Below, one piece after another: positions 13,219 through 62,812 of a stretch of DNA of 64,000 bases. Position 1 is the first letter of the stretch, and every line of letters begins with the position of its first letter. A program made the translations under genes and the position numbers. This DNA is from Octopus vulgaris (taxonomy: Eukaryota). The stretch lies in contig OX597824.1 in NCBI GenBank assembly GCA_951406725.2, positions 2,666,001 through 2,730,000 on the forward strand, given 5' to 3'. The notes below the pieces were generated by a model. That model had not been told where the DNA came from. It worked only from the letters and a program-made list of their open reading frames with translations, and made no database searches.

Positions 13219-13256
<38 letters not shown>

Positions 13257-13414
13257 AATGTGAGGATAAAATTCTTTTCGAAAAAAAAAATATTTTCTCG
13301 AAAAAAATTTTATCAATGGGCAGCATATTAAAAAAATACCTTTAACGGTTAAATTTATAAACAATTTGCCCTTTCTTTTGGCATTAGAAATTTTTTCCTT
13401 TGCCCTCATTTATG

Positions 13415-20881: not shown

Positions 20882-20886
<5 letters not shown>
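20265..20886 (+). mobile_element. R4/Dong-like non-LTR retrotransposon 3' end (restriction-like endonuclease)
   Basis: ILWDMPIHTDREIKANRPDIVVRDHEEKKCFLIDVSIP...KLSKYKDL carries the PD..D..K RLE motif. The element is bounded by (AAT)n on both sides. Confidence 0.85.
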
Positions 20887-20974
<88 letters not shown>

Positions 20975-23283: not shown

Positions 23284-23478
23284 ATGTTCTTCTGGCATGT
23301 TTTTTGTGTGAAGATCCTACTGCTTTCTTGCATGGTCTTTCATAGGTTGGCATACAGTGTGAATGATAACTTGTGCGCCAATAATCATCTTATTCTTCTT
23401 CCTAAGGAAATATACAAACAATGTAATATCGTCATTTCTAAAAAAGATGCACGGAAACCGCCAACAGTGAAAGCTCCG
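23284..23478 (+). CDS. PEBP-family gene copy 1, coding exon 1 (signal peptide plus two-Cys N-terminal segment)
   Basis: MFFWHVFCVKILLLSCMVFHRLAYSVNDNLCANNHLILLPKEIYKQCNIVISKKDARKPPTVKAP, 65 codons. Phase-0 donor CCG|gtaggt. Paralogous exon at 52118. Confidence 0.85.
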
Positions 23479-25020
23479 GTAGGTTATCCATGAACAATGC
23501 TAAAATTTTGTCTCATTTAGGCCATCAGTTTGTGAAAAGACGATGAGTTGATACCATCGTCCCCTTGCTTGATTGCTTCTTTATTTTATCGATCTGGAAA
23601 GGCTGAAACGCAAAGGTGACACTGTGTAGGGGATTTGAATGTAAATAGTTGGAAAGCATGTTTCTCGATGTTTTAACAATTCTGCTAGTTCGGCGCCCAA
23701 ATGGTTTCTAAATTAAGTACAACACCAGCAGTTTTAAGATGAGGTGATAAGTAGGTGCCACAAATTCCACTACTTGACAGCTGCTTTAATTCATTTCGAC
23801 ATCCAAGGGAATGAAAAGCAAAGTTAACCCTGGCGGAGTTTTTACTCGAAGTCTGAAGAGCCGAACAAAATTGTAGGTGTTACGCTGGTCACTAACCTTC
23901 ATTATTTGTCGTCTTTTATAAAGCGACATCATTGTATAATACCGAAACATTTCATGTGGTTATGTCCACTGCTCGAGCTTGCTTCTTTCTGTAAATGAAA
24001 AGCCACTGTCCAATGGTGTCTTCCTCTCGTCCAGGATCGCCCGGCTGATCATACTTTTTAAAAACGTTTGTTGATTTGAACTGGAGTGGGATACTGCAAC
24101 TTCTCATCTTACAGTTTGTGCCTCTGAAGAAAGTCGCTCGGATCTAGTTGGTTGGGTTGCCAGCATTTCAAAAATTAAAGTTTATCGAAAGTTTAAATAT
24201 TTGGCACAATAATATACTTTTCCAAGCTGAATTGCTGGAGTTATTTCACTTTCTCCAGAAAAATGTTTCTAAAAAGTTAGAGCGGTTTAAGTTTGATCAT
24301 TTTCATCCCGTCAGGAAAGAAGATTTGGAAACAGTCATTTTGGGCGTATTTTGTCGTTAATATTTGTAAACAGCACGTGCTCTGAAGTTTGGAGCATTCA
24401 ATATGCATTTAACGCGGTAGAACGAACTTAATAGATTTACGCTTGTTACTATGGAAACAGGAATCAGTTTGTCTGTGGCTTCCGATTGGCTAAAATAACC
24501 AAAATGTTCTGCCTTTAATTGCTAATAATCCTTTATTTATTGATTTATAGCGAAAACGATGCTCCCGTGCTTCATTAGCCAATAAAAGTGTATCATTACA
24601 CTGAATATGAAATCATTTCGAACAGAATTTGATGCTGGCTGCCAAACCGAATAGATCCAATCGGTCTTTCTTGGGAAGTGTACTGACGCCAGAGCTAATA
24701 TATCACCCTCGTACACAGGTCACGTGAGAGCTCGATGAGATCTCAAAGAGAGTCGAACGTTTCGGGTCATTTAATTACGTTAATTGAATTTACTTACGTA
24801 AAGCTCAAATGACGATAACAATTTTTTTCCTCCGATCTTCAAGCTGCGTTGAAAAGATGGACTTGACTCCAAAAATTAACATTCAAACACTTCCTGGAAA
24901 ATTAACTTATCAAATTTATTGAGTCAGAGAGATCGACACGGACTATTATTATTCTTCTTGGATTCCGGATGTTATCCCATAATTGTCATACATTTATTAA
25001 ATAATATGTTTAGATAACGT

Positions 25021-26605
25021 ACTTGGTCGAAAACCATGCTGGGTATCACTCAGCAAGTTATTTTCCTCAAGGAATGCGATTAGTTTCTTTCTGACTATCC
25101 GTTCCATGACTTTGCTGATGTGTGAAGTCAGAGATATATGCCTTTAGTTTTTGGCATCTGCTCTACTTCCCCCTTTATGTATTGGGCATATTATTCCCTC
25201 CTTCAGCTTGCTTGGCAGTTTGCCATTCGCAAGAAAGCTCTGGAAGAGAATCTTGAGAGGTTTTGCCAGGGCATGCTTACACGCTTTGAGGAGGATTGCT
25301 GGGAAACCATCTGGACCAGCAGTTGAGTTTGTGTCCACTTCATCTATGGCTAGTAGGACATCTTCTTCGCTAATGTCAATACATTCTATTGTAACCGCCT
25401 CGCTGGTTATAGGTGAGGCGACAAAGAAATCCACTGGTTCGTTCACTTGTCTGTGTTCCAACGGGGTGGTAAAGACACTTTTGAACTGGTCATTCAGCAT
25501 CTCACTGATCTTAGTTGGACTGTCTGTGAGGGAGCCATCCTTTTGGAGGAGGGGTCCTATCTTGTAGTGCACTGAGACTGTTTCTTTCGCGTAATGAAAG
25601 AAGGCCTTTGGGTTTGATTTAATATTTTTTATAACACATGCTTCTTTGTCTGCTTTCTCCTTCACATAGGATTATTGCAGCCTTTTTTCGATCTCCATCA
25701 GTGTTGTTTTCAGGCGGGACGTTTCGCTACTTTTGGGATGTTGGTTGAGACGATTTGCAACCTTCGTCCGTCGTCTCATGAGGATCTTCCTGTCTCTTGG
25801 AATCTTGCTCCTATTTGTTTTGGCCTTGTGCTCTGGGACATATGTCTGGCATACGGCTTGCACAGAAGACATGAAACATTCTAGTTTCATGTCAATGTCT
25901 GGTGTGGAGAGACATTCCGGCCAGTCCTCTCTGAGGATCTCTTTTTGGATCGATTTCCAATCTGCTTTGTGGAAGTTCATATTGGAGAGATTTTGGGTGC
26001 TTCCTTTAGGCTGTATATCTCTGGTTACTTTTGGCCCAAACATAGACAGCTCTATTATGTTGTGATCCGAAACTAATGTCGGTGTCACTTTCACATCATG
26101 AATGATGTCTATATTGTTCGTGAAGCAGAGATCCAGAATGTTATTTGCCCTTGTTGGCTTGAGTACAACTTGCTCCATGAATAAGGCGTTGGTGAGGTTG
26201 AGCAGGGACTCCACCTGTACTTGCTTGCAATGATTAATTCCTGAGAGTATGAGACCTTCAGGCCATTTGACGTTGGGGAAGCTGAAATATGGTCACGTGG
26301 TGTTCCAGATTCATGAGGATTTCTTTAATTCTTGTGAGGCAATCTTCAAACTTGCCTATGTGATTTGGGGCATCTGGTGGGCAATATGTATTGCATATGA
26401 CTATATTATGTTGTCTTATGTATACAATTAGAGTGTCACATACCGAATTTGAGTATGTCATCAAGACCTGGGGTGTGAGGTCATCTCGGATGTATACAGC
26501 AACTCCACCATGGCTCCTTTCCCTTCTGTCTGTTCGCAGTATGGCATAGTTTGGTATGTGTACTTCTGCGTCTTCTATATCAGGGCTGAGGTGAGTTTCC
26601 ACGAG
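25021..26605 (-). mobile_element. CR1-type LINE fragment (APE endonuclease to start of RT) in PEBP intron 1
   Basis: Motifs ETHL..I.D.EVHIPNY...R.DR..RSHGGVAVYI, PTRANNILDLCF, SDHNII, AGPDGFPAILLK and PIHKGGSR, frameshifted. Confidence 0.9.
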
Positions 26606-26644
26606 TGCTATGCATAGGGCTTGATTGCATATATATATATATTT

Positions 26645-26888
26645 ATAACAATTATTAAGGGTTTAGCAAACATGTTGCTAGACCACATACCGAAAAAATT
26701 AGAAATAGCAGCCAAAAGACCGTTATTTCTTTTCGCTACAAAATATGACTCCACAGACGACCCTCTCTGTAACTCACACAGGCAAAAAAGAAAGAAGGAA
26801 AACAATGAAATCAAACAGTCTTCGGTTAAATGTTTCGGTATGTGGTCTAGCAACTTGTTTGCTAAACCCTTAATTATTGTTATAATTA
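26645..26888. repeat. Inverted repeat, ~50-bp arms
   Basis: ataacaattattaagggtttagcaaacatgttgctagaccacataccgaaa pairs with tttcggtatgtggtctagcaacttgtttgctaaacccttaattattgttat. Confidence 0.8.
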
Positions 26889-26909
26889 TATATAAAACTT
26901 CTTGTATAA

Positions 26910-27268
26910 GAGTGGTTGTATACTGTCAATCTAACAAGAACGTGACAGTAGGGGGTACACCACCGCTGTATAGCCCTAGGAAGCATCGAACGCCTCCTGA
27001 TGGCTTTGACACATTTTTCCCTGTGTCCTTATATACATATACGAAGGGGAGACAAACACCCCGGCTGCCGAAACTGCATCTAGGGACACGTGTTTCAGGA
27101 TCGTTGTCCTTCATCGGCCTAGAGTAGCAGACACCTTCGTATATGTATATAAGGACACAGGGAAAAATGTGTCAAAGCCATCAGGAGGCGTTCGATGCTT
27201 CCTAGGGCTATACAGCGGTGGTGTACCTCCTACTGTCACGTTCTTGTTAGATTGACAGTATACAACCA
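26910..27268. repeat. Foldback with ~130-bp near-perfect arms and a hammerhead motif in the loop
   Basis: About 26910-27046 is the reverse complement of about 27135-27268. Confidence 0.85.
27080..27122 (-). ncRNA. Minimal type I hammerhead ribozyme-like motif (U4C core variant)
   Basis: The minus strand reads ctagg-CCGATGA-agga(caacga)tcct-GAAA-cacgtg-TC-cctag: a 5-bp stem I, 4-bp stem II, palindromic stem III and GUC triplet. Confidence 0.65.
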
Positions 27269-27450
27269 TTCTATCGCCCCACCACCGTGCATGTCTCTAC
27301 GAGAGATTTAGAAATTCAATATTTCTTATTCTTGTATAGGTTTTTACCGAATATGGTTCCTTTCCATACCGAAACTACTTGGTAAAATTTATTAATTATA
27401 AATTAATAATTTTTTACCCTATATCTATAATAATAATAATAATAATAATA

Positions 27451-27995
27451 GCAGTACCAGGCAGTGGCTCTCATGGTTTCTGATCTTAACTGATTGGAAG
27501 TGTTATCATGTACATTGTTTTGTCTTGGTATAAAAGATGGGCTACAGCAAATATTCTGCTCAATACCACAGATTTGCTTGTCAGTTGTTTGACCTTAACC
27601 AGTTGAGCATGTCCCTTAGTGGCTGACGATATGTGCATCTCTGATCACGAGCAGAAGTAGTGGGGGAGCATCATAGCCATGTGTTGAGAGGGATTATTTG
27701 GGGTTTGAATAGTTCACCTCTGGAAACATGGGTGGTTCTTTCAACATCCTTAAACAACCCTTATTCAGGGACCGTTTGAGTGGGATGGACTACTCAACCT
27801 GAAGAAAATTCTAACTGGGCCCCACCTGCAAGGTCATGTGCTGTTTATCTTGATATGAGATCACCATGCCGCGCACATATGGTTGTGATGCATGTGCCTG
27901 GTGTACCTTTATCAGACGGGTAGTCATGATGGGTATATTGGGCTTCGTATATTTTACCCCAGTGTCACTTTGATGGCATGAACTGCTCTCTCACC

Positions 27996-27996
<1 letters not shown>
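27451..27996 (+). mobile_element. Interspersed repeat bounded by (AAT)n, probably the 3' part of a non-LTR element
   Basis: A complex segment with (AAT)n tracts on both sides, arranged like the R4-type insertions elsewhere in the window. No protein motif recognised. Confidence 0.45.
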
Positions 27997-28068
<72 letters not shown>

Positions 28069-28385
28069 TATATATATATATATACAGTGATGGTTTGTTG
28101 CCAACTTAATGTGGCAGTTCCAGGAAATGGAAGAATGCTACTGCTATTTAGCACCAGGAAACACCGTTTCCAGTTGGTTATGTGACACAAGCGTTCTGTG
28201 TCCTTAAGTTTCCAAACAGGGGAGTAAAGCACCTCCAACCAGCAAAGCCAGCATCAAGAGTCATTATTGTTATAATTATATATAAAACTTCTTGTATAAG
28301 TTTTTACCGAATATGATTCTTTTCCATACCGAAACTACTTGGTGAAATTTATTAATTATAAATTAATAATTTTTTATCCTATATC

Positions 28386-28458
<73 letters not shown>

Positions 28459-28470
28459 GTGTATATATAT

Positions 28471-28541
<71 letters not shown>

Positions 28542-28586
28542 CATATATACACACACATATATATATATATATATGTGTGTATATAT

Positions 28587-28690
<104 letters not shown>

Positions 28691-28778
28691 GTACCAACAT
28701 CCTTCCTAATATGCTCGAATATGTGTATGATTTAATGAAATAAATTATTCCTAATTTTAAAATCTTTTGTTTTATTAG

Positions 28779-28886
28779 GCAAATGCAACTCTGAAGTCAA
28801 ACATTTATATGCTGCTTATGATTAATCCGGACGAATTTCCGCATTCTGACTTAGCCTATCCGCTTTGGATAAAGACACACATCACC
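28779..28886 (+). CDS. PEBP-family gene copy 1, exon 2
   Basis: ttttgttttattag|...|gtaagt, 108 nt, phase 0/0. [36 protein letters not shown] aligns to the PEBP 'YTL.M.DPDAP...HW.V.NI' block. Confidence 0.85.
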
Positions 28887-29569
28887 GTAAGTATAATTAG
28901 ATATTTTTTAGTAAATGTATTTTTTATGCAGATGTGTGCATTCATACATGCAACTGTTAATTTTAGCACCAATATGCGTATATAATTTCACAAATTGGAA
29001 CGCACCGCGCACACACATACACACACTTTAACAGATTCATACATGCAAAGATACCTACAGATGCACACAGATGCACATATTCATACACACAAATACATGC
29101 AAACACACACATGCATACATACATATATATAGTGAAGAGATTCAAGAAATTGTTTAACTGATAAATCATACTGAATATTGAGAAATTTCACTAAAACCTG
29201 CGCTAAAACATTATGAAAGAAATCAAATATTTCTGTAATTTACCGGTTTCAACACTTTTAAAACATATTCTTTCTAATTAATGATGTTGTCATAATTTCA
29301 TGATTATCTTGTCGGTGATAATGCTTTAATTTCATATGTGGTTGTTGATAATATCAGGGGAAGAGTTAAATAAATATTTACAGTAACTGGGGAGGTTAAT
29401 AAGTTGAATAATTTTTTCGTTCCTTATTAATAGTAATATTATTTTTGGTGAAGTAGCGAGTTGGACGTTGCCGATCTTCTTTGTGCCTCCTGCCGTGATA
29501 TGGGTTCATCCGGTATTGCCGATAAAAACTGAATGTCTAGACGTATTTTGAAGACTTCCATGTCCACAC

Positions 29570-29800
29570 TTTGCAAATCCCTGGTGTTCTGTGGTAGGGA
29601 ATCAAAGTGTTTGAAAGGATGATGAGATCAAGGGTAGTTAGCTTCCTAGTGAGTTACAATCTCCTAAATTCGAACCAGCATGGGTTTCTCTACAGCAGGG
29701 ACTGCCTAACATAGCTCTTGCACCACATAGATGATGTCTTTAAAGCCGCGGGATCAAGTTCAAACTCTGACGTCATATATCTTTATCGATTATCGTAGGT
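29570..29800 (+). mobile_element. Degenerate CR1-type RT fragment
   Basis: KVFERMMRSRVVSFL..YNLLNSNQHGF...RDCLT...NSDVIYL. Confidence 0.6.
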
Positions 29801-29880
29801 GCCCATGAAGTTGTGAGCTAAACCCTCTTCGACCTTCCAAATTTTGTCCATTGGCACATTCAAGGTGTAACAAATGGGAG

Positions 29881-29931
<51 letters not shown>

Positions 29932-30112
29932 GTAACATCACTCAGCTGGTAGCCATACCAACTGAGTGGACTGGGGCGACGTAAAATATACTGCCTCGCT
30001 CAAGGACATAACCTGTTGTATGGTCCGGTAAGTGGAACAACTGCGGAAGCGGAACACATCTTTCAGATTATTAGCTATCCTCTTCCAAATATATATGCAT
30101 GTATAAATATGC

Positions 30113-30155
<43 letters not shown>

Positions 30156-30267
30156 AATCAAAATGAGGGTGAAAAATTGGATATTGATTTGATAACATCA
30201 ATTTCAACACCAGTGGTCTAGCATATAAAAAAAACTGAGATTCAGTAAATAGTATTACATACATACA

Positions 30268-30456
30268 TATAAGGGGGAATTTTTAACCACTATGCGGAAG
30301 CCCTTATGCTAGAAGAATATCCGCTATGGTCTCAACCACTAAGAATTGTTCTCTGGTGTGCTAAATTTTCTGGAGAACAATTCTCAGTGATTAAGACCAT
30401 AGCGGATCTTGTAGCATAAGGGTTTCTAAATAGTGGTTAAAAGATTCCCTCTTATA
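30268..30456. repeat. Imperfect palindromic MITE-like element
   Basis: tataagggggaatttttaaccactat...cttatgcta...atccgctatggtct is mirrored by agaccatagcggat...tagcataag...atagtggttaaaagattccctcttata. Confidence 0.7.
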
Positions 30457-30623
30457 TTGATATATATATATATATATACACATACATATATATATATAGT
30501 TAGTTCAAACATATATATATATAGTTAGTCCAAACATGAAAACACAGAGAGAAAATACAACGCAAGGACGTGGAACAAGTATAGTGTTATTGGACGCTGA
30601 GGAAAAGAAAGAAAGAAGGAGGA

Positions 30624-30656
30624 TTTAACGTTTCGAGCGGAGCTTTTCGTCAGAAA
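30624..30656 (-). ncRNA. Minimal hammerhead-like motif in a Penelope-like repeat
   Basis: The minus strand reads ttt-CTGACGA-aaagctccgctc-GAAA-cg-TT-aaa. Related degenerate copies lie at about 925-955 (+) and 56239-56272 (+). Confidence 0.45.
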
Positions 30657-30731
30657 CATAGGAAAAGGAAAAGTCCAAGGAAGGGAAGACGGAGGAAAAA
30701 ATCGCCAACGATACACACGCGGTCACACACT

Positions 30732-30769
<38 letters not shown>

Positions 30770-31729
30770 CTTACATACATACATCGGACTCAACACAAAG
30801 CCCTCCTCCCAGAGACTTTCCACACACGCACTCTTTTGTAAAAAGAACATTTTACACAATCTTTTTTATTCATTTATTTTTTTGTATATTTTAATAAATA
30901 CTTTGTAATTTAAAAAATCTTTTTATAATTTTTATTTATTTCTGTTACTAATTCTAATTCAGTTACAGAATTGTTTTTTTCCTTTTCTGTTACTGATTTA
31001 GTCACATTTAATTTTTGTTATCACTAATTTTTATTTTTAATTATTTGTTTGTACTATTGATATTTAAAAAAAAAAATTTCATAACTTTTATTTTTTATAA
31101 TTTTTATTTTTCACTATCTATTTGTATTATTTTTTTTTTATATTCCTATATTCCTATACCACACACCACACACATCCGCGAGCGCGGATTAACAGTCCGA
31201 AGGCAAACGAGCCAAGACAATCTTTCAGCTTACATTTAATTATTTGGACACACGTGGACCAGTTTCTGGACTGGTATAATAACCTAACTTTCCTCAGCAC
31301 GAGTTGCCATGACAGATAGCCCGACCCCGTCTACAGCTGTTTCAGAAATATAACAGAAATCCCATCATCACCGACCCCCCAAAGAATTAACACGGGATCG
31401 CCTAACGAGAACGCAAACTTCATAGAATCAAAGTATCCCTGACTTGAAGAGAAGTTTGCTATCTACCCCTTGTTTGGATGATTTACTACTTCTGATGATG
31501 TTATAAAAAAATATGAACTCCCTTCGGAACTTACATACCATGGTCAAGACCCTAACCCTAACCTTCCACACAACATATTCCTTGGAATAGCAAGTTTAAG
31601 ATCTAACATATATTTTCATTTTCATTCTTATACATTCTTATACCCTTTATACTTGCTAAATTTCTCCCTTTCCAAAATAAATTCTTATATTGAACTCAAC
31701 TATTCCCCTCTATTTAACTCTCTCATATC

Positions 31730-31777
31730 GTCTCTGATGAAGGGATATCTTTTAAATCCCTGAAACAGCTGTAAGAC
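31730..31777 (+). ncRNA. Minimal type I hammerhead ribozyme with intact core
   Basis: gtct-CTGATGA-agggat(atcttttaa)atccct-GAAA-cagctg-TA-agac: canonical core, 6-bp stem II, palindromic stem III, GUA triplet and 4-bp stem I. Confidence 0.75.
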
Positions 31778-32019
31778 TACATTTCTCTTTATAAAAATGT
31801 TCTAGAAACTTCACACTGCCTTGGCTTTGTTGTCTTATTTTATTTAACATTTACATTCTTACACACGACCCGCGTTAGACTCCTCACTCATACTTTTATT
31901 GAACCGGGAGTCCATCAGTAGCACTTGCATAGCCTTACCTGCCTTTTGGGTCTTCTGGATACCAAAACCTCTTACATTATATGCACACACAAACACACAC
32001 AGTAATAGATGGATGGATG

Positions 32020-32071
<52 letters not shown>

Positions 32072-32344
32072 CAGAGAGCAAGAGAGAGAGATGTATATAT
32101 ACACACACACATATGAGAAAGAATGAAGGGAAAATAAAACACTCAGCATAGTTAATTACGCAAGTTAATTACGACAATACTTGAATAAATGAAGATACGT
32201 TATTCAATGTATATTACTCTTGTGGTGAGAACAACAACATCAAAAACATTTCTATATGATTACGTAAGTATATGTTTGTGTGTGCGTATTTATGTATGGA
32301 AGCATGTAAGTATCAATGTATTCTTAATGAAATTGTAATTGCAG

Positions 32345-32393
32345 CCCACACAACTGAAAGCAGGCGTAACAGCAGATAAAAAAGACGTGATAC
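32345..32393 (+). CDS. PEBP-family gene copy 1, exon 3 (49 nt)
   Basis: taattgcag|...|gtaagt. It encodes PTQLKAGVTADKKDVI plus 1 nt; phase 0 in and phase 1 out fit exons 2 and 4. Confidence 0.8.
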
Positions 32394-32899
32394 GTAAGTA
32401 ATATTTTCATTGTTACTCAATAGTGATACATGCATGTACATACATACATACACACATACAGACAAACATACATACATATATGCATGCATGCGTGTGTGGG
32501 CACGCGTGAGGTTATCAATATAATTTGTTGTTCCGTTAAGTAAATAAACAAAAATCTACGCCATACAAACACGATCCAGTGAGAGATAAATATCATTGAA
32601 TGTGCACAGAATAAAGATTCGAGCTGGTAATAGTTTCTTGTTTTGTACCTCCAAGCAATCTCAGGCTCTGAGCGCATGGTTCGTTCTATTTCTGAAGAGA
32701 ATAGACCATATGCTCAGAGCCTCTGGATTGCTTGGAGACACAAGGCGTGTTGTAAAAAACCTGTTTGTAAAAAGCCTGTCTAGAGCCGTATCTTCCTACT
32801 ATTGTGTACATTAAATGATATGTATATGTAATAACACTATACTTGTTCCACGTCCTCGTGTTGTGTTTACTCTTTGTGTTTTCATGTTTGGATTAACTT

Positions 32900-32987
<88 letters not shown>

Positions 32988-33041
32988 CAAATGTATACAT
33001 GCATGAATGTATGTGTATATTCATGCACGTATACACACACA

Positions 33042-33123
<82 letters not shown>

Positions 33124-33784
33124 ACCATGCTGGGGCACTGCCATATATATATATATATATATATAATTTCACATGGGTGATTCTTTCTTGCCTTCGGATT
33201 CATGGTCAAACGTCTGGGTGGAATTGCGCGAAAAATGACACAGATGTGTAGAATGATCCGGTGGTGATGCTGGGCTTCGTAGTTTTCATAGCTCTCATGG
33301 TTACCGAGATAATCTACTATGACAATACGTGTTTATGGATGAGAAAGGAAGGGATTGATAGGTGAATAAGGAAGGAAGGAAGGAGTGATATCATACCTGG
33401 TAGTGTACGCTGAAAAATAAATCAAGCAGCGTTTCAACTCTGTGTGAATATATGTGTGTGTATGTAAAATGAAGGGGTATTTGAATGTGTGTGTGTGTGT
33501 GCGCGTGTGAGTGTTTGTGTCTGTGCGCGTGCGCAGGCGCAATGGAAGTGGGATGTTTCATCTTTGTTCGCTTAGTATTTGGGTTTCTTTTTTGATTTGG
33601 TTGAATCTTGGTTGCTTTTTTTTTTGTTGGTCAGTTATTTATAGCGTTTTGATAGAGAAAAGTTATTCTAAAATTGCTTTTTAACGTAAGCGTGCCAAAA
33701 CAAGTCGAATGCTTACACAGAGCAGGTTTTACAGCCACGTCATCCAAACCGAACGGGTGAAACCGGGTTTAGGTGGTAGTATAT

Positions 33785-33830
<46 letters not shown>

Positions 33831-33874
33831 CTAATATAATAATCAAACATATAAATATATATATATACTTATAA

Positions 33875-33905
<31 letters not shown>

Positions 33906-34184
33906 AGTGTGTGTGTGTGTGTGTTTGTGTGTGTGTGGGTGTGTGGGTGTGTGTGTGTAGAATGATGCAGTTATAGAGACTCACACACCGGATGTCAAGT
34001 TCCTGTGTGAAGGATATAAGCGCACTGCGCCTCTTCATTAATCGCAAGTCCAGTACTCTTCGTGTTTAGAGCACTAGACCTCTGACAGGTGAAGCATTGC
34101 AGCGATCATAATAGCTTTGACTCAGAGACTTGAAGTCCTGTGTACAAGAATTCATAACTCTCTCATTCAATATTTTTAATCCTC

Positions 34185-34400
34185 GAAGGTGGTGAGATGG
34201 AAGAGACGTTAGCTCGCCGGGAGAAATGCTTAACAGTATTTCGTCTGCCGCTCCGTTCTGAGTTCAAATTCCGTCGACGTCGTCTTTGCCTTTCATCCTT
34301 TCGGGGTCGATAAATTAAGTACCAGTCGTGTACTGGGGTCGATCTAATCGACTTGCCCCCTCCCCCCAAATTTCAAGCCTTGTGCATTGAGTAGAAAAGA
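34185..34400 (+). mobile_element. SINE, family B
   Basis: Full family B motif. Confidence 0.8.
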
Positions 34401-34490
34401 ATATTTTTAATCCTCTGTTTCCAACGATACTAACGTCCGCCTCTCTAGTCATATGATTTGTCGATAGACATACTCACACATACACAACAA

Positions 34491-34544
<54 letters not shown>

Positions 34545-35111
34545 TGGACATCTACATAGAAATACACACAGACGCACCCACCCACTCATACACATATACA
34601 CACGCACAAGCACGCATGAATAATTTAATACGATATAATATAATATAAAATATAGATTTGAATTGTTTCGAGTATGAAAGAAGTTGGTTTCTAACAAAGA
34701 TACAAAACGAAGTCACATTTTAAACTTGAGAGAGGTCTTGCATCATTTTAGTGTACCTGTAGAGAGTGTGCTTGTAATGTGCGTGTTACCTGGTTGATTT
34801 CTTTCACGGAAAACCTTAGCTTTTCCTGAGTGTTACTTAAACCAAATGCAGCAGTTGTTATTGGTATAAAGGTGAAGTTCATAAATCTGCGTCTGCAAGC
34901 TGGAGACTTCAAAGAAGTTGTCAGTAGCTAACCTCTTCCTCTTTGCTTCTTGAGGAACAATTGATCTCAACGATGATTCATACTTCATCATGTCTGTCCC
35001 AGTTAATAATATCCGTTGTGTTAGGTTTGCACGTGGTACAAGTTTTGAGGGGAAATTTTCAGCAATATTCCTTGTGTTGATATTTATGCATATATTTCTC
35101 TATTGCCCCCA

Positions 35112-38100
35112 AGGGGCCAAACACAGAGGGGACAAACAAGGACAGACAAAGGGATTAGGGGCTAAACACAGAGGGGACAAACAAGGACAGACAAAGGGAT
35201 TAGGGGCTAAACACAGAGGGGACAAACAAGGACAGACAAAGGGATTAGGGGCTAAACACAGAGGGGACAAACAAGGACAGACAAAGGGATTAGGGGCTAA
35301 ACACAGAGGGGACAAACAAGGACAGACAAAGGGATTAGGGGCTAAACACAGAGGGGACAAACAAGGACAGACAAAGGGATTAGGGGCTAAACACAGAGGG
35401 GACAACAAGGACAGACAAAGGGATTAGGGGCTAAACACAAAAAGGGGACAAACAAGGACAGACAAAGGGATTAGGGGCTAAACACAGAGGGGACAAACAA
35501 GGACAGACAAAGGGATTAGGGGCTAAACACAAAAAGGGGACAAACAAGGACAGACAAAGGGATTAGGGGCTAAACAGGACAGAAACAGGGGGACAAACAA
35601 GGACAGACAAAGGGATTAGGGCTAAACACAGAGGGGACAAAAAGGACAGACAAAGGGATTAGGGGCTAAAACACAAAAAGGGGACAAACAAGGACAGACA
35701 AAGGGATTAGGGGCTAAACACAGAGGGGACAAACAAGGACAGACAAAGGGATTAGGGGCTAAACACAAAAAGGGGACAAACAAGGACAGACAAAGGGATT
35801 AGGGGCTAAACACAGAGGGGACAAACAAGGACAGACAAAGGGATTAGGGGCTAAACACAGAGGGGACAAACAAGGACAGACAAAGGGATTAGGGGCTAAA
35901 CACAGAGGGGACAAACAAGGACAGACAAAGGGATTAGGGCTAAACACAAAAGGGGACAAACAAGGACAGACAAAGGGATTAGGGGCTAAACACAGAGGGG
36001 ACAAACAAGGACAGACAAACGGATTAGGGGCTAAACACAGAGGGGACAAACAAGGACAGACAAAGGGATTAGGGGCTAAACACAGAGGGGACAAACAAGG
36101 ACAGACAAAGGGATTAGGGGCTAAAAACAGAGGGGACAAACAAGGACAGACAAAGGGATTAGGGGCTAAACACAAAAAGGGGACAAACAAGGACAGACAA
36201 ACGGATTAGGGGCTAAACACAGAGGGGACAAACAAGGACAGACAAACGGATTAGGGGCTAAACACAGAGGGGACAAACAAGGACAGACAAAGGGATTAGG
36301 GGCTAAACACAGAGGGGACAAACAAGGACAGACAAAAGGATTAGGGGATAAACACAGAGGGGACAAACAAGGACAGACAAAGGGATTAGGGGCTAAACAC
36401 AGAGGGGACAAACAAAGACAGACAAAGGGATTAGGGGCTAAACACAGAGGGGACAAACAAGGACAGACAAAGGGATTAGGGGTTAAACACAGGGGACAAA
36501 CAAGGACAGACAAAGGGATTAGGGGCTAAACACAGCGGGGACAAACAAGGACAGACAAAGGGATTAGGGGCTAAACACAGAGGGGACAAACAAGGACAGA
36601 CAAAGGGATTAGGGGCTAAACACAGAGGGGACAAACAAGGACAGACAAAGGGATTAGGGGCTAAACACAGAGGGGACAAACAAGGACAGACAAACGGATT
36701 AGGGGCTAAACATGGAGGGGACAAACAAGGACAGACAAACGGATTAGGGGCTAAACATGGAGGGGCCAAACAAGGACAGACAAAGGGATTAGGGGCTAAA
36801 CACAGAGGGGACAAACAAGGACAGACAAAGGGATTAGGGGCTAAACATGGAGGGGACAAACAAGGACAGACAAAGGGATTAGGGGCTAAACACAGAGGGG
36901 ACAAACAAGGACAGACAAAGGGATTAGGGGCTAAACACAGAGGGGACAAACAAGGACAGACAAAGGGATTAGGGCTAAACACAAAAGGGGACAAACAAGG
37001 ACAGACAAAGGGATTAGGGCTAAACACAGAGGGGACAAACAAGGACAGACAAAGGGATTAGGGGCTAAACACAAATAGGGGACAAACAAGGACAGACAAA
37101 GGGATTAGGGGCTAAACACAGAGGGGACAAACAAGGACAGACAAACGGATTAGGGGCTAAACACAGAGGGGACAAACAAGGACAGACAAAGGGATTAGGG
37201 GCTAAACACAGAGGGGACAAACAAGGACAGACAAAGGGATTAGGGGCTAAACACAAAAAGGGGACAAACAAGGACAGACAAAGGGATTAGGGGCTAAACA
37301 CAGAGGGGACAAACAAGGACAGACAAAGGGATTAGGGGCTAAACACGGAGGGGACAAACAAGGACAGACAAAGGGATTAGGGGCTAAACACAGAGGGGAC
37401 AAACAAGGACAGACAAACGGATTAGGGGCTAAACACAGAGGGGACAAACAAGGACAGACAAAGGGATTAGGGGCTAAACACAGAGGGGACAAACAAGGAC
37501 AGACAAAGGGATTAGGGGCTAAACACAAAAAGGGGACAAACAAGGACAGACAAAGGGATTAGGGGCTAAACACAGAGGGGACAAACAAGGACAGACAAAG
37601 GGATTAGGGGCTAAACATAGAGGGGACAAACAAGGACAGACAAAGGGATTAGGGGCTAAACACAGAGGGGACAAACAAGGACAGACAAACGGATTAGGGG
37701 CTAAACACAGAGGGGACAAACAAGGACAGACAAAGGGATTAGGGGCTAAACACAGAGGGGACAAACAAGGACAGACAAAGGGATTAGGGGCTAAACACAG
37801 AGGGGACAAACAAGGACAGACAAAGGGATTAGGGGCTAAACACAGAGGGGACAAACAAGGACAGACAAAGGGATTAGGGGCTAAACACAAAAAGGGGACA
37901 AACAAGGACAGACAAAGGGATTAGGGGTTAAACACAGAGGGGACAAACAAGGACAGACAAAGGGATTAGGGGCTAAACACAGAGGGGACAAACAAGGACA
38001 GACAAAGGGATTAGGGGCTAAACACAGAGGGGACAAACAAGGACAGACAAAGGGATTAGGGGCTAAACACAGAGGGGACAAACAAGGACAGACAAAGGGA

Positions 38101-41100
38101 TTAGGGGCTAAACATGGAGGGGACAAACAAGGACAGACAAACGGATTAGGGGCTAAACATGGAGGGGACAAACAAGGACAGACAAAGGGATTAGGGGCTA
38201 AACACAGAGGGGACAAACAAGGACAGAGACAAACGGATTAGGGGCTAAACATGGAGGGGACAAACAAGGACAGACAAAGGGATTAGGGGCTAAACACAGA
38301 GGGGACAAACAAGGACAGACAAAGGGATTAGGGGCTAAACACAGAGGGGACAAACAAGGACAGACAAAGGGATTAGGGGATAAACACAGAGGGGACAAAC
38401 AAGGACAGACAAACGGATTAGGGGCTAAACATAGAGGGGACAAACAAGGACAGACAAACGGATTAGGGGCTAAACACAGAGGGGACAAACAAGGACAGAC
38501 AAAGGGATTAGGGGCTAAACACAGAGGGGACAAACAAGGACAGACAAAGGGATTAGGGGCTAAACACAGAGGGGACAAACAAGGACAGACAAAGGGATTA
38601 GGGGCTAAACACAGAGGGGACAAACAAGGACAGACAAAGGGATTAGGGGCCAAACACAGAGGGGACAAACAAGGACAGACAAAGGGATTAGGGGCTAAAC
38701 ACAGAGGGGACAAACAAGGACAGACAAAGGGATTAGGGCTAAACACAGAGGGGACAAACAAGGACAGACAAAGGGATTAGGGGCTAAACACAGAGGGGAC
38801 AAACAAGGACAGACAAAGGGATTAGGGGCTAAACACAGAGGGGACAAACAAGGACAGACAAAGGGATTAGGGGCTAAACACAGAGGGGACAAACAAGGAC
38901 AGACAAAGGGATTAGGGGCTAAACACAGAGGGGACAAACAAGGACAGACAAAGGGATTAGGGGCTAAACACAGAGGGGACAAACAAGGACAGAGAAACGG
39001 ATTAGGGCTAAACACAGAGGGGACAAACAAGGACAGACAAACGGATTAGGGGCTAAACACAGAGGGGACAAACAAGGACAGACAAAGGGATTAGGGGCTA
39101 AACATGGAGGGGACAAACAAGGACAGACAAACGGATTAGGGGCTAAACATGGAGGGGACAAACAAGGACAGACAAAGGGATTAGGGGCTAAACATGGAGG
39201 GGACAAACAAGGACAGACAAAGGGATTAGGGGCTAAACATGGAGGGGACAAACAAGGACAGACAAACGGATTAGGGGCTAAACATGGAGGGGACAAACAA
39301 GGACAGACAAAGGGATTAGGGGCTAAACATGGAGGGGACAAACAAGGACAGAGAAACGGATTAGGGGCTAAACATGGAGGGGACAAACAAGGACAGACAA
39401 CGGATTAGGGGCTAAACACAGAGGGGACAAACAAGGACAGACAAAGGGATTAGGGGCTAAACACAGAGGGGACAAACAAGGACAGACAAAGGGATTAGGG
39501 GCTAAACACAGAGGGGACAAACAAGGACAGACAAACGGATTAGGGGCTAAACACAGAGGGGACAAACAAGGACAGACAAAGGGATTAGGGGCTAAACACA
39601 GAGGGGACAAACAAGGACAGACAAACGGATAAGGGGCTAAACACAAAAAGGGGACAAACAAGGACAGACAAAGGGATTAGGGGCTAAACACAGAGGGGAC
39701 AAACAAGGACAGACAAAGGGATTAGGGGCTAAACATAGAGGGGACAAACAAGGACAGACAAAGGGATTAGGGGCTAAACACAGAGGGGACAAACAAGGAC
39801 AGACAAACGGATTAGGGCTAAACACAGAGGGGACAAACAAGGACAGACAAAGGGATTAGGGGCTAAACACAGAGGGGACAAACAAGGACAGACAAAGGGA
39901 TTAGGGGCTAAACACAGAGGGGACAAACAAGGACAGACAAAGGGATTAGGGGCTAAACACAGAGGGGACAAACAAGGACAGACAAAGGGATTAGGGCTAA
40001 ACACAAAAGGGGACAAACAAGGACAGACAAAGGGATTAGGGGTTAAACACAGAGGGGACAAACAAGGACAGACAAAGGGATTAGGGGCTAAACACAGAGG
40101 GGACAAACAAGGACAGACAAAGGGATTAGGGGCTAAACACAGAGGGGACAAACAAGGACAGACAAAGGGATTAGGGGCTAAACACAGAGGGGACAAACAA
40201 GGACAGACAAACGGATTAGGGGCTAAACATGGAGGGGACAAACAAGGACAGACAAACGGATTAGGGGCTAAACATGGAGGGGACAAACAAGGACAGACAA
40301 AGGGATTAGGGGCTAAACACAGAGGGGACAAACAAGGACAGACAAACGGATTAGGGGCTAAACATGGAGGGGACAAACAAGGACAGACAAAGGGATTAGG
40401 GGCTAAACACAGAGGGGACAAACAAGGACAGACAAACGGATTAGGGGCTAAACACAGAGGGGACAAACAAGGACAGACAAAGGGATTAGGGGATAAACAC
40501 AGAGGGGACAAACAAGGACAGACAAACGGATTAGGGGCTAAACATAGAGGGGACAAACAAGGACAGACAAACGGATTAGGGGCTAAACACAGAGGGGACA
40601 AACAAGGACAGACAAAGGGATTAGGGGCTAAACACAGAGGGGACAAACAAGGACAGACAAAGGGATTAGGGGCTAAACACAGAGGGGACAAACAAGGACA
40701 GACAAAGGGATTAGGGGCTAAACACAGAGGGGACAAACAAGGACAGACAAAGGGATTAGGGGCCAAACACAGAGGGGACAAACAAGGACAGACAAAGGGA
40801 TTAGGGGCAAAACACAGAGGGGACAAACAAGGACAGACAAAGGGATTAGGGGCTAAACACAGAGGGGACAAACAAGGACAGACAAAGGGATTAGGGGCTA
40901 AACACAGAGGGGACAAACAAGGACAGACAAAGGGATTAGGGGCTAAACACAGAGGGGACAAACAAGGACAGACAAAGGGATTAGGGGCTAAACACAGAGG
41001 GGACAAACAAGGACAGACAAAGGGATTAGGGGCTAAACACAGAGGGGACAAACAAGGACAGACAAAGGGATTAGGGGCTAAACACAGAGGGGACAAACAA

Positions 41101-42018
41101 GGACAGACAAAGGGATTAGGGGCTAAACACAGAGGGGACAAACAAGGACAGAGAAACGGATTAGGGGCTAAACACAGAGGGGACAAACAAGGACAGACAA
41201 ACGGATTAGGGGCTAAACACAGAGGGGACAAACAAGGACAGACAAAGGGATTAGGGGCTAAACATGGAGGGGACAAACAAGGACAGACAAACGGATTAGG
41301 GGCTAAACATGGAGGGGACAAACAAGGACAGACAAAGGGATTAGGGGCTAAACATGGAGGGGACAAATAAGGACAGACAAAGGGATTAGGGGCTAAACAT
41401 GGAGGGGACAAACAAGGACAGACAAACGGATTAGGGGCTAAACATGGAGGGGACAAACAAGGACAGACAAAGGGATTAGGGGCTAAACATGGAGGGGACA
41501 AACAAGGACAGAGAAACGGATTAGGGGCTAAACATGGAGGGGACAAACAAGGACAGACAAACGGATTAGGGGCTAAACACAGAGGGGACAAACAAGGACA
41601 GACAAACGGATTAGGGGCTAAACATGGAGGGGACAAACAAGGATAGACAAACGGATTAGGGGCTAAACATGGAGGGGACAAACAAGGACAGACAAAGGGA
41701 TTAGGGGCTAAACACGGAGGGGACAAACAAGGACAGACAAAGGGATTAGGGGCTAAACATAGAGGGGACAAACAAGGACAGACAAACGGATTAGGGGCTA
41801 AACATAGAGGGGACAAACAAGGACAGACAAACGGATTAGGGGCTAAACATAGAGGGGACAAACAAGGACAGACAAACGGATTAGGGGCTAAACATAGAGG
41901 TGACAAACAAGGACAGACAAAGGGATTAGGGGCTAAACACAGAGGGGACAAACAAGGACAGACAAAGGGATTAGGGGCTAAACACAGAGGGGACAAACAA
42001 GGACAGAGAAACGGATTA
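35112..42018. repeat. 45-bp minisatellite, ~150 copies, derived from a SINE family B 3' segment
   Basis: Unit ggggctaaacacagaggggacaaacaaggacagacaaagggatta. The array is continuous with the SINE body at 42015-42186 and the SINE tail at about 35092-35115. Confidence 0.97.
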
Positions 42019-42186
42019 AGTCGTTTACATCGACTCCAGTGCGTAACTGGTACTTAATGTATCGACTGCGAAAGGATGAAAGGCAAAGTCGTCCTCGGCG
42101 TAATTTGATCTCAGAACGTAACGGCAGTCGAAATACGGCTACGCATTTCGCCCAGTGTGCTAACCACTCTGCCAGCTCGCCGCCTT
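42015..42186 (-). mobile_element. SINE, family B body, host of the minisatellite
   Basis: The reverse complement begins aaggcggcgagctggcagag..., as in the copy at 54921. Confidence 0.85.
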
Positions 42187-42938
42187 GTTGATATTTATGT
42201 ATGTATTCGGTAATAGGATAGAGTTCTATCTCAAATTTTCCATGGCAGTTTTTTTTTTCTGTAGGCATGACATTGAATGTTGTAGCGACAACATTATGTT
42301 AGATTGAAAGGAAGTACGTTCATGATTTTGGGGCAGATGCTGATCTGATCTGATATCTTCCACAGAAATATGACATAATTTACTTTTTCGGTTGTTTCGA
42401 TTTTTATAGGGAACCGAAAGAGAAGTTATAGAATGTTCGCATTAACGTTCATTGTTCGGTTAATAGATCGATCACGCGAGACTATGGTGGTTTTCTTGTG
42501 ATGTCTGACCGCGTATCCAGGGATTTGGTTTCGAATCCTCAATACAATATTGTCGGAAAACAAGCCATAGTGTTTTTTTTCGTTTTGTTTTGCTTTTTAT
42601 TGTTTTTGTTATTTATGGTTGACATTCGGGTTTTCTTTGGGGTATGTTAGTTCGGTTGCTTTGGGTTGTACTGGAGATCATCAGGAAGTGGATGCTTCCT
42701 GAAGGGTTTACTGCTGACTCCTGGGATATTTCTCTCTTCGTTTTACAGGTCATTGTTTATGTATTTACTTTAACTGTTGTTGTTTAACAGGTTCTATGGG
42801 TTGCGTTGGTAAGTTTTGTAGTTGCAGACCCTAGGATGTAGCCATTATATTTTTGTAGCAGAAATGATGATATATACAAATATTTGTATAAATTTTATTT
42901 ACCACTAAATATGTTTCTCTTATTTTTCCCTCCACCAG

Positions 42939-43216
42939 CTTTCGAATCCCCTTCTCCGAATTTTGGAATCCATCGCTACCAGTTCTTACTGTATCCACAG
43001 AAAGGCAAAACTGTCATGTTAAAATCGAAGCTGGCATTAACTCGACTACTTCGTGTTGCTGAATTTGAAGGCTACAACAAGGTACGACCCGTATTCAGCT
43101 ATCAATATGTTATTGTTGCAGAAAGAGGCATTTCAACAGCTTCTGATTTGCTCAGCCAGAGGAATAGTTCTTTGTTTATGATAATTTTTACATTTTTTGG
43201 CTGGTTACTATCGTAA
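42939..43216 (+). CDS. PEBP-family gene copy 1, terminal exon 4
   Basis: Acceptor ttatttttccctccaccag|, phase 1. (P)FESPSPNFGIHRYQFLLYPQ matches the PEBP 'Y..P.P..G.HRY.FLL..Q' motif. It ends ...GISTASDLLSQRNSSLFMIIFTFFGWLLS*. The spliced product is 209 aa. Confidence 0.88.
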
Positions 43217-43292: not shown

Positions 43293-43849
43293 CATACATA
43301 CATATATATGGCGTATCGTCAGATCCCGGCCGACAGGATTTTAGGATCATGCAATACGCCATAAAGTTAAGCCCTTTATGGACGGGAAACCGAAGGTAAT
43401 CCCATAAACCGGTCTTCCCCATTTTTAATATGTACTGCTCTAAACCTTGGAGTGTGCTTCTACTTTCGGATTAATATTTTTAACAAACGATATATATATA
43501 TATATTTATATATATATATATATTTATATATTTATATATATGAACAATAAAACAAGAAATAAACAATAAAGTGTTATATCTTCTCTTCAATGTTCCTATT
43601 TTCATTCCGTGTTTTCTTTTCACCCGAACAAGTAAAGTGTGTGTAGGCAATGTGTTCTGTTGTTATATATTCTTATATTGCACTCTCTCCTAGTCCTTCT
43701 TTCTCTATACTGAGTCCTGCGCTCCTTTACGTATTTCTCTGCATTTTTTTCCTTCATTCATTTTCATTTAGAAATCCTTTTATTCCAGAGATAATTTATT
43801 ACATAGAAAAATGTGAGCAAGAGAAATGATATCCTTAAGATTACAAACC

Positions 43850-52117: not shown

Positions 52118-52312
52118 ATGTTCTTCTGGCATGTTTTCCGAGTGAAGATCCTACTGCTTTCTTGCATGGTCTTTCACAGTTTGGCATACTATGCGAATTA
52201 CCTGTGCTCCAGAAAGGACCAGCTGATTCTTCTTCCTAAGAATATATACAAAAAATGTAAAGTCGACCTTAGTGTAGCTGATGTAAAGAAACCGCCAACA
52301 GTGAAAGTTCCG
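52118..52312 (+). CDS. PEBP-family gene copy 2, coding exon 1
   Basis: MFFWHVFRVKILLLSCMVFHSLAYYANYLCSRKDQLILLPKNIYKKCKVDLSVADVKKPPTVKVP. Same 195-nt length and CCG|gtaggt donor as copy 1. Confidence 0.85.
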
Positions 52313-60053: not shown

Positions 60054-60161
60054 GCAAATGCAACTCTGCCAGCACAAACATATTTATTGCTCATGATAGA
60101 TGCGGACGAATTTCCGAATTCTGAAATGGTGTATCCGCATTGGATAAAGGCACATATGACC
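60054..60161 (+). CDS. PEBP-family gene copy 2, exon 2
   Basis: ttgttttattag|...|gtaagt, 108 nt. Encodes ANATLPAQTYLLLMIDADEFPNSEMVYPHWIKAHMT and retains the D.D and HW motifs. Confidence 0.88.
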
Positions 60162-62763: not shown

Positions 62764-62812
62764 CCCACACAACTGAAAGAGGGAGTAACAGCAGCATCCA
62801 GCGATTTGCTAC
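62764..62812 (+). CDS. PEBP-family gene copy 2, exon 3 (49 nt); exon 4 expected beyond the window
   Basis: taattgcag|...|gtaagt. Encodes PTQLKEGVTAASSDLL plus 1 nt, with the same size and phase as copy 1. Confidence 0.8.

What the first reader, a model, noticed from the sequence alone, without database searches (positions are those of the whole stretch)
23284..43216. PEBP with a signal peptide and a GPI-anchor-like C-terminus
Seen: a hydrophobic N-terminus, a two-Cys segment, an N-glycosylation sequon (NAT, in both copies), and a C-terminus with small residues (G-I-S-T-A-S), a polar spacer and a terminal hydrophobic run (LFMIIFTFFGWLLS) with no cytosolic tail. Established: PEBP1/RKIP is cytosolic, while PEBP4, insect antennal A5 and nematode Ov16-type proteins are secreted. 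I know of no well-characterised GPI-anchored PEBP. Inference: a surface-tethered ligand-binding or recognition protein.
Basis: partly seen in the sequence, partly recalled or inferred. Interest (0 to 1): 0.7.

Follow-up and report, generated by a model that had tools for sequence, protein, structure and literature searches.

The report
Octopus PEBP with probable GPI anchor
This octopus gene encodes a member of a well-known, usually soluble lipid- and ligand-binding protein family that appears to be exported and tethered to the cell surface by a glycolipid anchor, and it sits in a duplicated gene cluster whose protein-coding parts differ far more than the DNA around them.

Summary
Four GT-AG exons (23284-43216) give an open 209-aa protein. 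Exons 2-4 match an Octopus vulgaris predicted protein at 100%. It is a divergent PEBP with a signal-peptide-like start, a Cys pair shared with other secreted PEBPs, an NAT sequon, and a C-terminus of GPI-signal shape (best omega Ser183). About 1-3% of background stop-terminated frames look like that. Four relatives also carry hydrophobic tails and two close ones do not.

Against: no dedicated predictor could be run. No public model joins exon 1 to exon 4. One model (P0004) splices out before the tail. Copy 2's exon 4 lies outside the window. A predicted GPI-anchored PEBP is already in print (Cryptococcus Ova1, PMC1828699).

Beyond the finding: the two tandem copies differ at 75 of 280 mature-coding bases but at 104 of 1871 flanking bases. 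Copy 1 has lost two canonical pocket residues.

Verdict: probably a GPI-anchored, secreted-type PEBP in a diversified octopus paralogue cluster; ligand and tissue untested. New variant of a known kind; interest 0.45.

The parts
23284..23478 (+). Copy 1 exon 1 (residues 1-65): signal peptide plus first strands of the PEBP fold, with Cys31 and Cys47
   Evidence: 68% identical to Octopus proteins P0001/P0002; the model of relative P0007 aligns to solved PEBPs from residue 27
23284..23358 (+). Predicted signal peptide (residues 1-25, cleavage probably after Ser25)
   Evidence: hydropathy; 22 of 24 residues identical in copy 2 and 19 of 24 in P0001; cleavage site inferred from the recalled (-3,-1) rule
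28779..28886 (+). Copy 1 exon 2 (residues 66-101): NAT sequon at 67; degenerate DPD motif (Asn81-Pro-Asp); Leu94-Trp95 where relatives have His-Trp
32345..32393 (+). Copy 1 exon 3 (49 nt, ends in phase 1)
   Evidence: spliced identically in public model P0003
35112..42018 (.). Tandem array of 153 copies of a 45-bp unit inside intron 3; not part of the protein
42939..43216 (+). Copy 1 exon 4 (residues 118-209 + stop): GxHRY motif (42965-42979), last strand of the fold, C-terminal signal
43079..43087 (+). Internal donor-like site (cut after 43081) used by public model P0004; its use removes the last strand and the tail
   Evidence: 7 of 9 consensus matches, the same as the six donors of the two copies
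43133..43141 (+). Best omega/omega+1/omega+2 triplet, Ser183-Thr-Ala, with 26 residues after Ser183
   Evidence: home-made rule; same triplet at the equivalent place in P0007
43172..43213 (+). Terminal hydrophobic run (residues 196-209), no charged residue, directly followed by the stop
43546..43570 (+). Three AATAAA hexamers about 330-350 nt after the stop (candidate polyadenylation signals)
   Evidence: use not tested, and the region is AT-rich
52118..52312 (+). Copy 2 exon 1
60054..60161 (+). Copy 2 exon 2 (keeps the Asp and His that copy 1 lost; Pro of DPD replaced by Ala)
62764..62812 (+). Copy 2 exon 3; its exon 4 would lie beyond the window end

Best explanation
The locus is an Octopus gene (exons 2-4 identical to an O. 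vulgaris predicted protein) for a secreted-type PEBP that has a GPI-attachment signal. SHOWN in sequence or by computation: the four-exon open frame; the PEBP fold ending at about residue 178; hydrophobic ends; the Cys pair; the sequon; the tandem paralogue. INFERRED from established secretory biology: the signal peptide takes the chain into the ER and is cut near Ser25; Cys31-Cys47 probably form a disulfide; Asn67 is glycosylated; GPI transamidase cuts near Ser183 and attaches a glycolipid, leaving a domain of about 158 residues on the outer membrane leaflet, releasable by phospholipase. INFERRED, weaker (about 0.4 given anchoring): the domain is a paralogue-specific binding surface for an extracellular partner at an exposed epithelium, most likely a protein such as a protease or a microbial or prey surface molecule. 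It is probably not a phospho-headgroup binder like PEBP1, because copy 1 lacks the Asp70 and His86 equivalents and the C-terminal pocket residues. Paralogues differ in these positions, and their mature exons have diverged while signal peptide and intron flanks stay alike. The likeliest cause is selection for distinct proteins combined with gene conversion of non-coding flanks.
For: Gene model and splice sites. Public models reproduce the junctions: exon 1-2-3 in paralogue P0001, exon 2-3-4 with tail in P0003. All 11 PDB matches of the full-length profile are PEBP-family, best E 1.5e-6. AlphaFold model of P0003: domain pLDDT 80-97 up to residue 100, tail 50-57 in the last three blocks. The full-length relative P0007 aligns to FT at Z 14.6, rmsd 3.1, 145 residues, over residues 27-189, so both hydrophobic ends lie outside the fold. 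Tail is rarer than 1-3% in background. In the supported 8-row clade (99/97) all 3 rows that reach the end of the domain have a hydrophobic extension preceded by an (S/G)-T-A triplet; the other 5 rows are truncated. P0013 and P0014 are single proteins with signal peptide, Cys pair, PEBP and a rule-passing tail, and their matched stretches do not include the tail. Divergence: 75 of 280 mature-coding, 5 of 72 signal-coding, 104 of 1871 non-coding bases, Fisher p 2e-24; 41 of 93 mature codons change the amino acid.
Against: No dedicated predictor and no transcript data. The GPI rule is home-made and post hoc. Only about four residues separate the last strand from Ser183, so the omega-minus region is hydrophobic rather than a polar linker, and the spacer holds two leucines. 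Two clade relatives fail the strict rule: P0005 has 17 residues after its hydrophobic run, and P0007's run is weaker (1.6) with three charges. Close relatives P0006 and P0011 end at the last strand with no tail. The public O. vulgaris models start at internal Met76/Met79 without exon 1, and P0004 leaves exon 4 before the tail at a site as consensus-like as the real donors. dN (0.27) does not exceed dS (0.30) over codons 35-117. O. vulgaris and O. sinensis exons 1 and 2 of one paralogue are identical over 101 residues, which argues against a fast ongoing arms race. An open frame after 75 random substitutions occurs in 9.5% of simulations, so it is weak evidence of selection.
Confidence: 0.65

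Rival explanations
1. The main product is a soluble secreted PEBP. The tail is spliced away, never converted to GPI, or the anchored form is shed at once, so the protein works in mucus, saliva or haemolymph like tail-less relatives.
For: P0004 uses the internal donor at 43081, which scores 7 of 9 like the true donors. P0006, P0011, P0015 and P0019 are secreted-type relatives without tails. A conserved signal peptide with a divergent mature part is also seen in venom-gland multigene families (PMC4963849, section 6 read).
Against: P0004 drops the last strand, which relatives keep and which is modelled as a confident strand (residues 95-103 of P0003). P0004 joins two gene copies, and its last codons were not found in the window. 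The tail is in frame, non-random and shared with relatives.
Confidence: 0.15
2. The tail is an uncleaved C-terminal transmembrane anchor (type I protein without a cytosolic tail).
For: P0005 has 17 residues after a strongly hydrophobic run, as a short cytosolic tail would. P0007's tail is modelled as a 24-residue helix. The linker before Ser183 is short.
Against: In copy 1 the run is only 14 residues; the last 19-residue window averages 0.93. There is no basic stop-transfer residue after it, and a small-residue triplet sits 26 residues from the end, as GPI signals require (rule recalled).
Confidence: 0.1
3. The 209-aa model is not made: exon 1 is not spliced to exon 2 here, or the copy is a decaying duplicate whose tail is chance read-through.
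For: No public protein contains both exon 1 and exon 4 of this copy. Two pocket residues are lost. P0003 scores 20 bits on Pfam PBP, under the cut-off of 24.
Against: Frames and all splice sites are intact in both copies. Paralogue models join exon 1 to exon 2 at the same point. Exon 1 supplies part of the fold. Random read-through passes the GPI rule in only 0.7% of trials.
Confidence: 0.1

Closest known systems
PEBP family (Pfam PF01161 PBP): PEBP1/RKIP, plant FT/TFL1/CEN, Tm16, mL38
   Same: Same fold and motif order (DPD-like, HW-like, GxHRY, last strand).
   Different: Has a signal peptide, Cys pair, sequon and hydrophobic tail. Copy 1 has Asn and Leu where relatives have the pocket Asp and His. 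The structural match to human PEBP1 stops at its residue 176, so pocket residues L180/Y181/L184 (list from PMC3338619) have no counterpart.
Secreted Cys-pair PEBPs, including vertebrate PEBP4-like proteins (label for P0016/P0017/P0022 recalled from motifs, not from a call) and P0015, P0019
   Same: Hydrophobic N-terminus and both cysteines align; no C-terminal helix after the last strand.
   Different: They end 0-9 residues after the last strand. The tree does not place the octopus clade with the PEBP4-like rows on a supported branch, so orthology to PEBP4 is not shown.
Cryptococcus neoformans Ova1
   Same: PEBP domain, secreted mannoprotein, predicted GPI anchor (PMC1828699, passages seen).
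   Different: Fungal. The anchor is a prediction in the passage seen. No sequence comparison could be made here; independent gain is inferred, not tested.
Octopus paralogues P0001 (O. sinensis LOC118765305) and P0002 (O. vulgaris); unnamed relatives P0005-P0011, P0013, P0014
   Same: Same exon-1/2/3 layout and near-identical signal peptide in P0001/P0002; tails in P0005, P0007, P0013, P0014.
   Different: P0001 and P0002 lack an exon-4 equivalent; P0001 ends in translated sequence matching intron 3 of copy 1 at 24 of 25 residues. P0006 and P0011 have no tail. Source organisms of P0005 onward are unknown.
Multigene secreted-protein families with conserved signal peptide and accelerated mature exons (crotaline venom PLA2, SVMP)
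   Same: [quoted passage not shown] The PLA2 papers were seen only as titles in its reference list; their intron-versus-exon result is recalled.
   Different: Analogy of evolutionary pattern only. Nothing here shows venom-gland expression or toxicity, and a GPI anchor would argue against an injected role.

Membership tests
PEBP (PF01161) | Profile match to the PBP domain | tested here: met
   P0004 (window exons 2-4 part plus copy-2 exon 2) 27.3 bits, above cut-off 24; P0003 20 bits, E 9e-4, below it. 9 of 11 relatives pass the cut-off; P0014 is at 23.8 and P0010 has no match. 11 of 11 PDB matches of profile A6 are PEBP-family. The spliced 209-aa protein itself was not scanned.
PEBP (PF01161) | PEBP fold | tested here: met
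   P0003 model: Foldseek probability 1.00 to CEN, FT, PEBP1 and mL38, though no E below 0.001. Full-length relative P0007: Z 14.6 to FT, and the first 47 rows are PEBP-family.
PEBP (PF01161) | GxHRY motif (His118/Tyr120 of human PEBP1) | tested here: met
   G127-I-H129-R-Y131
PEBP1/RKIP-type anion-binding PEBP | Pocket Asp70 and His86 | tested here: not met
   Copy 1 has Asn81 and Leu94; copy 2 and P0002 keep Asp and His. Mapping is through CEN/FT and family alignments; the human residue list is from PMC3338619, and the placing of D70 and H86 in the motifs is recalled.
PEBP1/RKIP-type anion-binding PEBP | Cytosolic protein without signal peptide, with C-terminal helix capping the pocket | tested here: not met
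   Hydrophobic N-terminus; alignment to human PEBP1 ends at residue 176 (on relative P0007)
PEBP4 orthologues | Signal peptide and N-terminal cysteines | tested here: met
   Both Cys align with P0016/P0017; their PEBP4-like label is recalled
PEBP4 orthologues | Supported clade with vertebrate PEBP4 | tested here: inconclusive
   31-row tree: the octopus clade and the PEBP4-like rows are separated only by weakly supported deep branches; no named PEBP4 reference was available
GPI-anchored proteins | Cleavable N-terminal signal peptide | tested here: inconclusive
   Hydropathy and conservation fit; no dedicated predictor available
GPI-anchored proteins | Small omega/omega+2 residues, spacer, terminal hydrophobic run, no cytosolic tail | tested here: met
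   Home-made rule: Ser183-Thr-Ala, 26 residues after Ser183, 14-residue run; background 0.7-2.2%
GPI-anchored proteins | Polar unstructured linker before omega | tested here: inconclusive
   Only about four residues after the last strand; short linkers occur in Ly6-type proteins (recalled)
GPI-anchored proteins | Glycolipid attached; released by PI-PLC | not testable with these tools
   needs a bench test

The most novel reading that the evidence does not exclude
Octopuses have expanded a cluster of GPI-tethered and soluble PEBPs into a diversified cell-surface recognition repertoire (immune, chemosensory or adhesive). Paralogues carry different pocket residues, conversion keeps their splice flanks interchangeable, and read-through splicing between neighbouring copies (as in models P0004 and P0002) adds combinatorial variants. 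This would be a new use of the PEBP fold as a variable receptor.
Probability: 0.15. Interest if true: 0.75.

Novelty: new variant of a known kind. Interest (0 to 1): 0.45.

Why it matters
PEBPs are known mainly as cytosolic regulators or as soluble secreted proteins. An animal PEBP fixed to the outer membrane would have to act on extracellular partners and gives a clean system for asking what secreted PEBPs bind. Within one supported family, some members have the tail and others lack it, so tethered and soluble versions can be compared. The strong excess of coding over non-coding divergence marks the cluster as a candidate for octopus-specific surface biology. The public gene models found for this cluster are all fragments or chimeric-looking (P0001-P0004), which may be why it is unannotated. 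My ten literature searches found no paper on a cephalopod PEBP, but the library lacks most subscription journals, and supplementary tables were not searched.

Tried and rejected
Word search with exon 4 among proteins of 161-2000 aa: none of 69 candidates scored.

Pfam on single exons was too weak: exon 4 PBP E 0.31; nothing for copy-1 exons 1 and 2. P0001 against PDB sequences gave only an unrelated match at E 1.6.

ESM Atlas: best feature scores 0.77 and 0.83, leads only, though PBP-labelled; best structure match TM 0.52/0.70 to an FT-like cluster.

Alignments A1, A2 and A5 misplaced the exons, A3 lost most of exon 4 in its profile and A4 added P0002's unrelated ends; none was used for a search.

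The tree test of the 'tail' label (5 changes; 500 of 500 shuffles as low) shows no clustering. It counted five truncated rows as tail-less, so it cannot decide between repeated gain and loss. Left out of the tree: P0003, P0004, P0010, P0023, P0029, most of P0012, and five mammal-like rows.

Positive selection by dN/dS alone was not shown (0.27/0.30). Fourfold sites in unchanged codons differ at 3 of 25, not significantly above non-coding (p 0.16).

A retroelement origin for the intron-3 stretch that forms P0001's tail was suspected but not supported: no Pfam match for the adjacent minus-strand frame. A cryptic acceptor at 42651 would give an in-frame hydrophobic ending without GxHRY; considered unlikely.

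No further family exons were found in the window.

Paper searches for PEBP with GPI gave only Ova1 as a precedent. Passages of PMC10510153, PMC8959702 and PMC3244413 mention both terms without linking them. One search found no PEBP4-focused paper.

No complex prediction was run, as no binding partner is claimed. Source organisms of P0005-P0038, expression, and the metagenome and viral collections stayed unchecked.
Full report
OBSERVATION. The window is AT-rich and full of microsatellites. A four-exon gene on the + strand runs from 23284 to 43216 with GT-AG introns and gives an open 209-aa product. A second copy has exons 1-3 at 52118, 60054 and 62764 with the same lengths, phases and donor sequences. 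Its exon 4 is not in the window, so its tail is unknown.

IS THE TAIL CHANCE? SignalP, NetGPI and DeepTMHMM were not available. I wrote a simple GPI rule from recalled criteria, after seeing the sequence. Copy 1 passes with Ser183-Thr-Ala and 26 residues after Ser183. The rule is passed by 22 of 980 background stop-terminated frames, 8 of 634 non-repetitive ones, 0.7% of 20000 random read-throughs and 5.2% of 5000 tail shuffles. An equally hydrophobic uncharged end occurs in 29 of 981 frames. So the tail is unlikely to be chance, but this is not a validated prediction. One weakness is that only about four residues separate the last strand from Ser183.

IDENTITY. Exon 4 matched P0003, an Octopus vulgaris predicted protein, at 100%; P0003 is exon 2 from Met76 through the tail. 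Exon 1 matched O. sinensis LOC118765305 (P0001) and another O. vulgaris model (P0002) at 68%. Family: P0003 hits CEN at E 2e-5, and 8 of 8 PDB matches are PEBP-family; the full-length profile gives 11 of 11. AlphaFold gives a confident domain and a low-confidence tail for P0003, with PEBP matches at probability 1.00 but no E under 0.001. The full-length relative P0007 aligns to FT at Z 14.6, rmsd 3.1, over residues 27-189. Exon 1 therefore supplies part of the fold, and both hydrophobic ends lie outside it. P0003's start at Met76 is best read as a truncated model (inference).

RELATIVES. The profile search returned 38 proteins; 33 were examined for tails, five mammal-like ones being left out. 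Besides P0003, two passed the rule (P0013, P0014), both with signal peptide, Cys pair and a PEBP domain matched without the tail. P0005 and P0007 have hydrophobic extensions after an (S/G)-T-A triplet but fail the strict rule. P0006 and P0011 end at the last strand. A tree of 31 rows gives a supported clade (99/97) of the two window copies, P0001, P0002, P0005, P0007, P0008 and P0009. All 3 complete members have a tail; the other 5 are truncated. Tails are scattered over the wider tree, so gain or loss has happened more than once. The Cys pair is shared with tail-less secreted PEBPs. The organisms behind P0005 onward could not be determined; a cephalopod origin for the closest ones is inference from similarity.

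EVIDENCE AGAINST. No public protein holds both exon 1 and exon 4 of this copy. That site matches the donor consensus at 7 of 9 positions, as do the six true donors. But the product loses the last strand of the fold, and its final codons are not in the window. I read it as a chimeric model, without being able to exclude real minor splicing.

First, the copies differ at 75 of 280 mature-coding bases (26.8%), 5 of 72 signal-coding bases (6.9%) and 104 of 1871 flanking non-coding bases (5.6%), p 2e-24; around exon 3 the flanks differ at under 2%. 41 of 93 mature codons change amino acid; this count is ungapped and slightly inflated at residues 25-34. dN is 0.27 and dS 0.30, while fourfold sites in unchanged codons differ at 3 of 25. 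More distant paralogues show the same flank conservation: P0001's tail matches translated intron 3 at 24 of 25 residues, and P0010 ends in the same four read-through residues as copy 1's intron 1. One paralogue's exons 1 and 2 are identical between O. vulgaris and O. sinensis. The best reading is older, selected divergence among paralogues plus conversion of non-coding flanks, not a current arms race. Second, the pocket has changed. Human PEBP1's pocket includes D70, H86, H118, Y120, L180, Y181 and L184 (PMC3338619, two passages seen). Copy 1 keeps the H118 and Y120 equivalents but has Asn and Leu at the D70 and H86 positions; copy 2 keeps both; P0001, P0007, P0008 and P0014 vary in other ways. 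The structural match to PEBP1 ends at its residue 176.

MECHANISM. Most likely (0.65): ER entry, signal cleavage near Ser25, a Cys31-Cys47 disulfide, glycosylation at Asn67, GPI attachment near Ser183, and display of a PEBP domain on the outer leaflet. These steps are inferred from sequence and established secretory biology. Given anchoring, I put about 0.4 on a paralogue-specific binding role toward an extracellular protein or microbial surface at an exposed epithelium. PEBPs have been linked to serine-protease inhibition (PMC3244413, passage seen), and yeast Tfs1 inhibits carboxypeptidase Y (PMC1828699). No tissue or ligand data were obtainable. Rivals: soluble secreted product (0.15), uncleaved membrane anchor (0.10), wrong model or pseudogene (0.10).

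KNOWN PRECEDENT. Cryptococcus Ova1 is a secreted PEBP predicted to carry a GPI anchor (PMC1828699; 12 of 15 matching passages seen), so the architecture is not new to biology. Ten searches found no animal example and nothing on a cephalopod PEBP or LOC118765305; subscription journals and supplementary tables were not covered. A conserved signal peptide in a diversifying secreted family is described for snake venom metalloproteinase genes (PMC4963849, section 6 and passages); this is an analogy of pattern only.

VERDICT. Observation confirmed; interpretation partly supported. It is a PEBP-family member but not a PEBP1-type anion binder, and PEBP4 orthology is not shown. It is probably GPI-anchored. 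New variant of a known kind; interest 0.45. Novel case (a variable surface-recognition repertoire built on the PEBP fold): probability 0.15, interest 0.75.

Noticed in passing
window 35112-42018: 6.9-kb tandem array, 153 copies of a 45-bp unit at 96% match, inside intron 3. It runs directly into a dispersed repeat that also occurs near 9451-10014, 34186-34405 and 54919-55125; a SINE origin is recalled, not tested.
   Followed up: partly
window 1-672 (minus strand): Open frame of 224 codons running off the window start; possibly an exon of an unrelated gene. Pfam gave only DUF5528 at E 0.024, below its cut-off; no PDB match.
   Followed up: partly
window 1667-1738 (+): tRNA-His (GTG) gene.
   Followed up: yes
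window about 11316-13326: Tandem repeat of about 857 bp, first two copies 99% identical, third 75% over the compared 300 nt; a recent duplication or an assembly artefact.
   Followed up: no
window 20611-22650, 25000-26600, 48379-48567: Broken retroelement-like reading frames flanking and inside the gene; only 48379-48567 had a Pfam match (zf-RVT, E 2.7e-5, below cut-off). LINE identity of the others is recalled.
   Followed up: partly
window 26634-27432, 28263-28392 and 30245-30479: Long inverted repeats and short duplications in introns 1 and 2 (for example 26909-27272, 86% self-complementary), resembling foldback elements.
   Followed up: no
window 42644-42718 (+): Intron-3 stretch whose translation matches the C-terminus of O. 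sinensis model P0001 at 24 of 25 residues, although P0001's mature exons are only 38-61% identical to copy 1. A weak in-frame acceptor lies at 42651.
   Followed up: partly
P0002 (public O. vulgaris model): Contains one exon 1 followed by two different exon-2 sequences, the second identical to exon 2 of O. sinensis P0001: either a model merging neighbouring copies or alternative duplicated exons.
   Followed up: partly
P0029 (unnamed hit): Multi-PEBP protein with a transmembrane segment and cytosolic tail, showing another way a PEBP is membrane-tethered.
   Followed up: no
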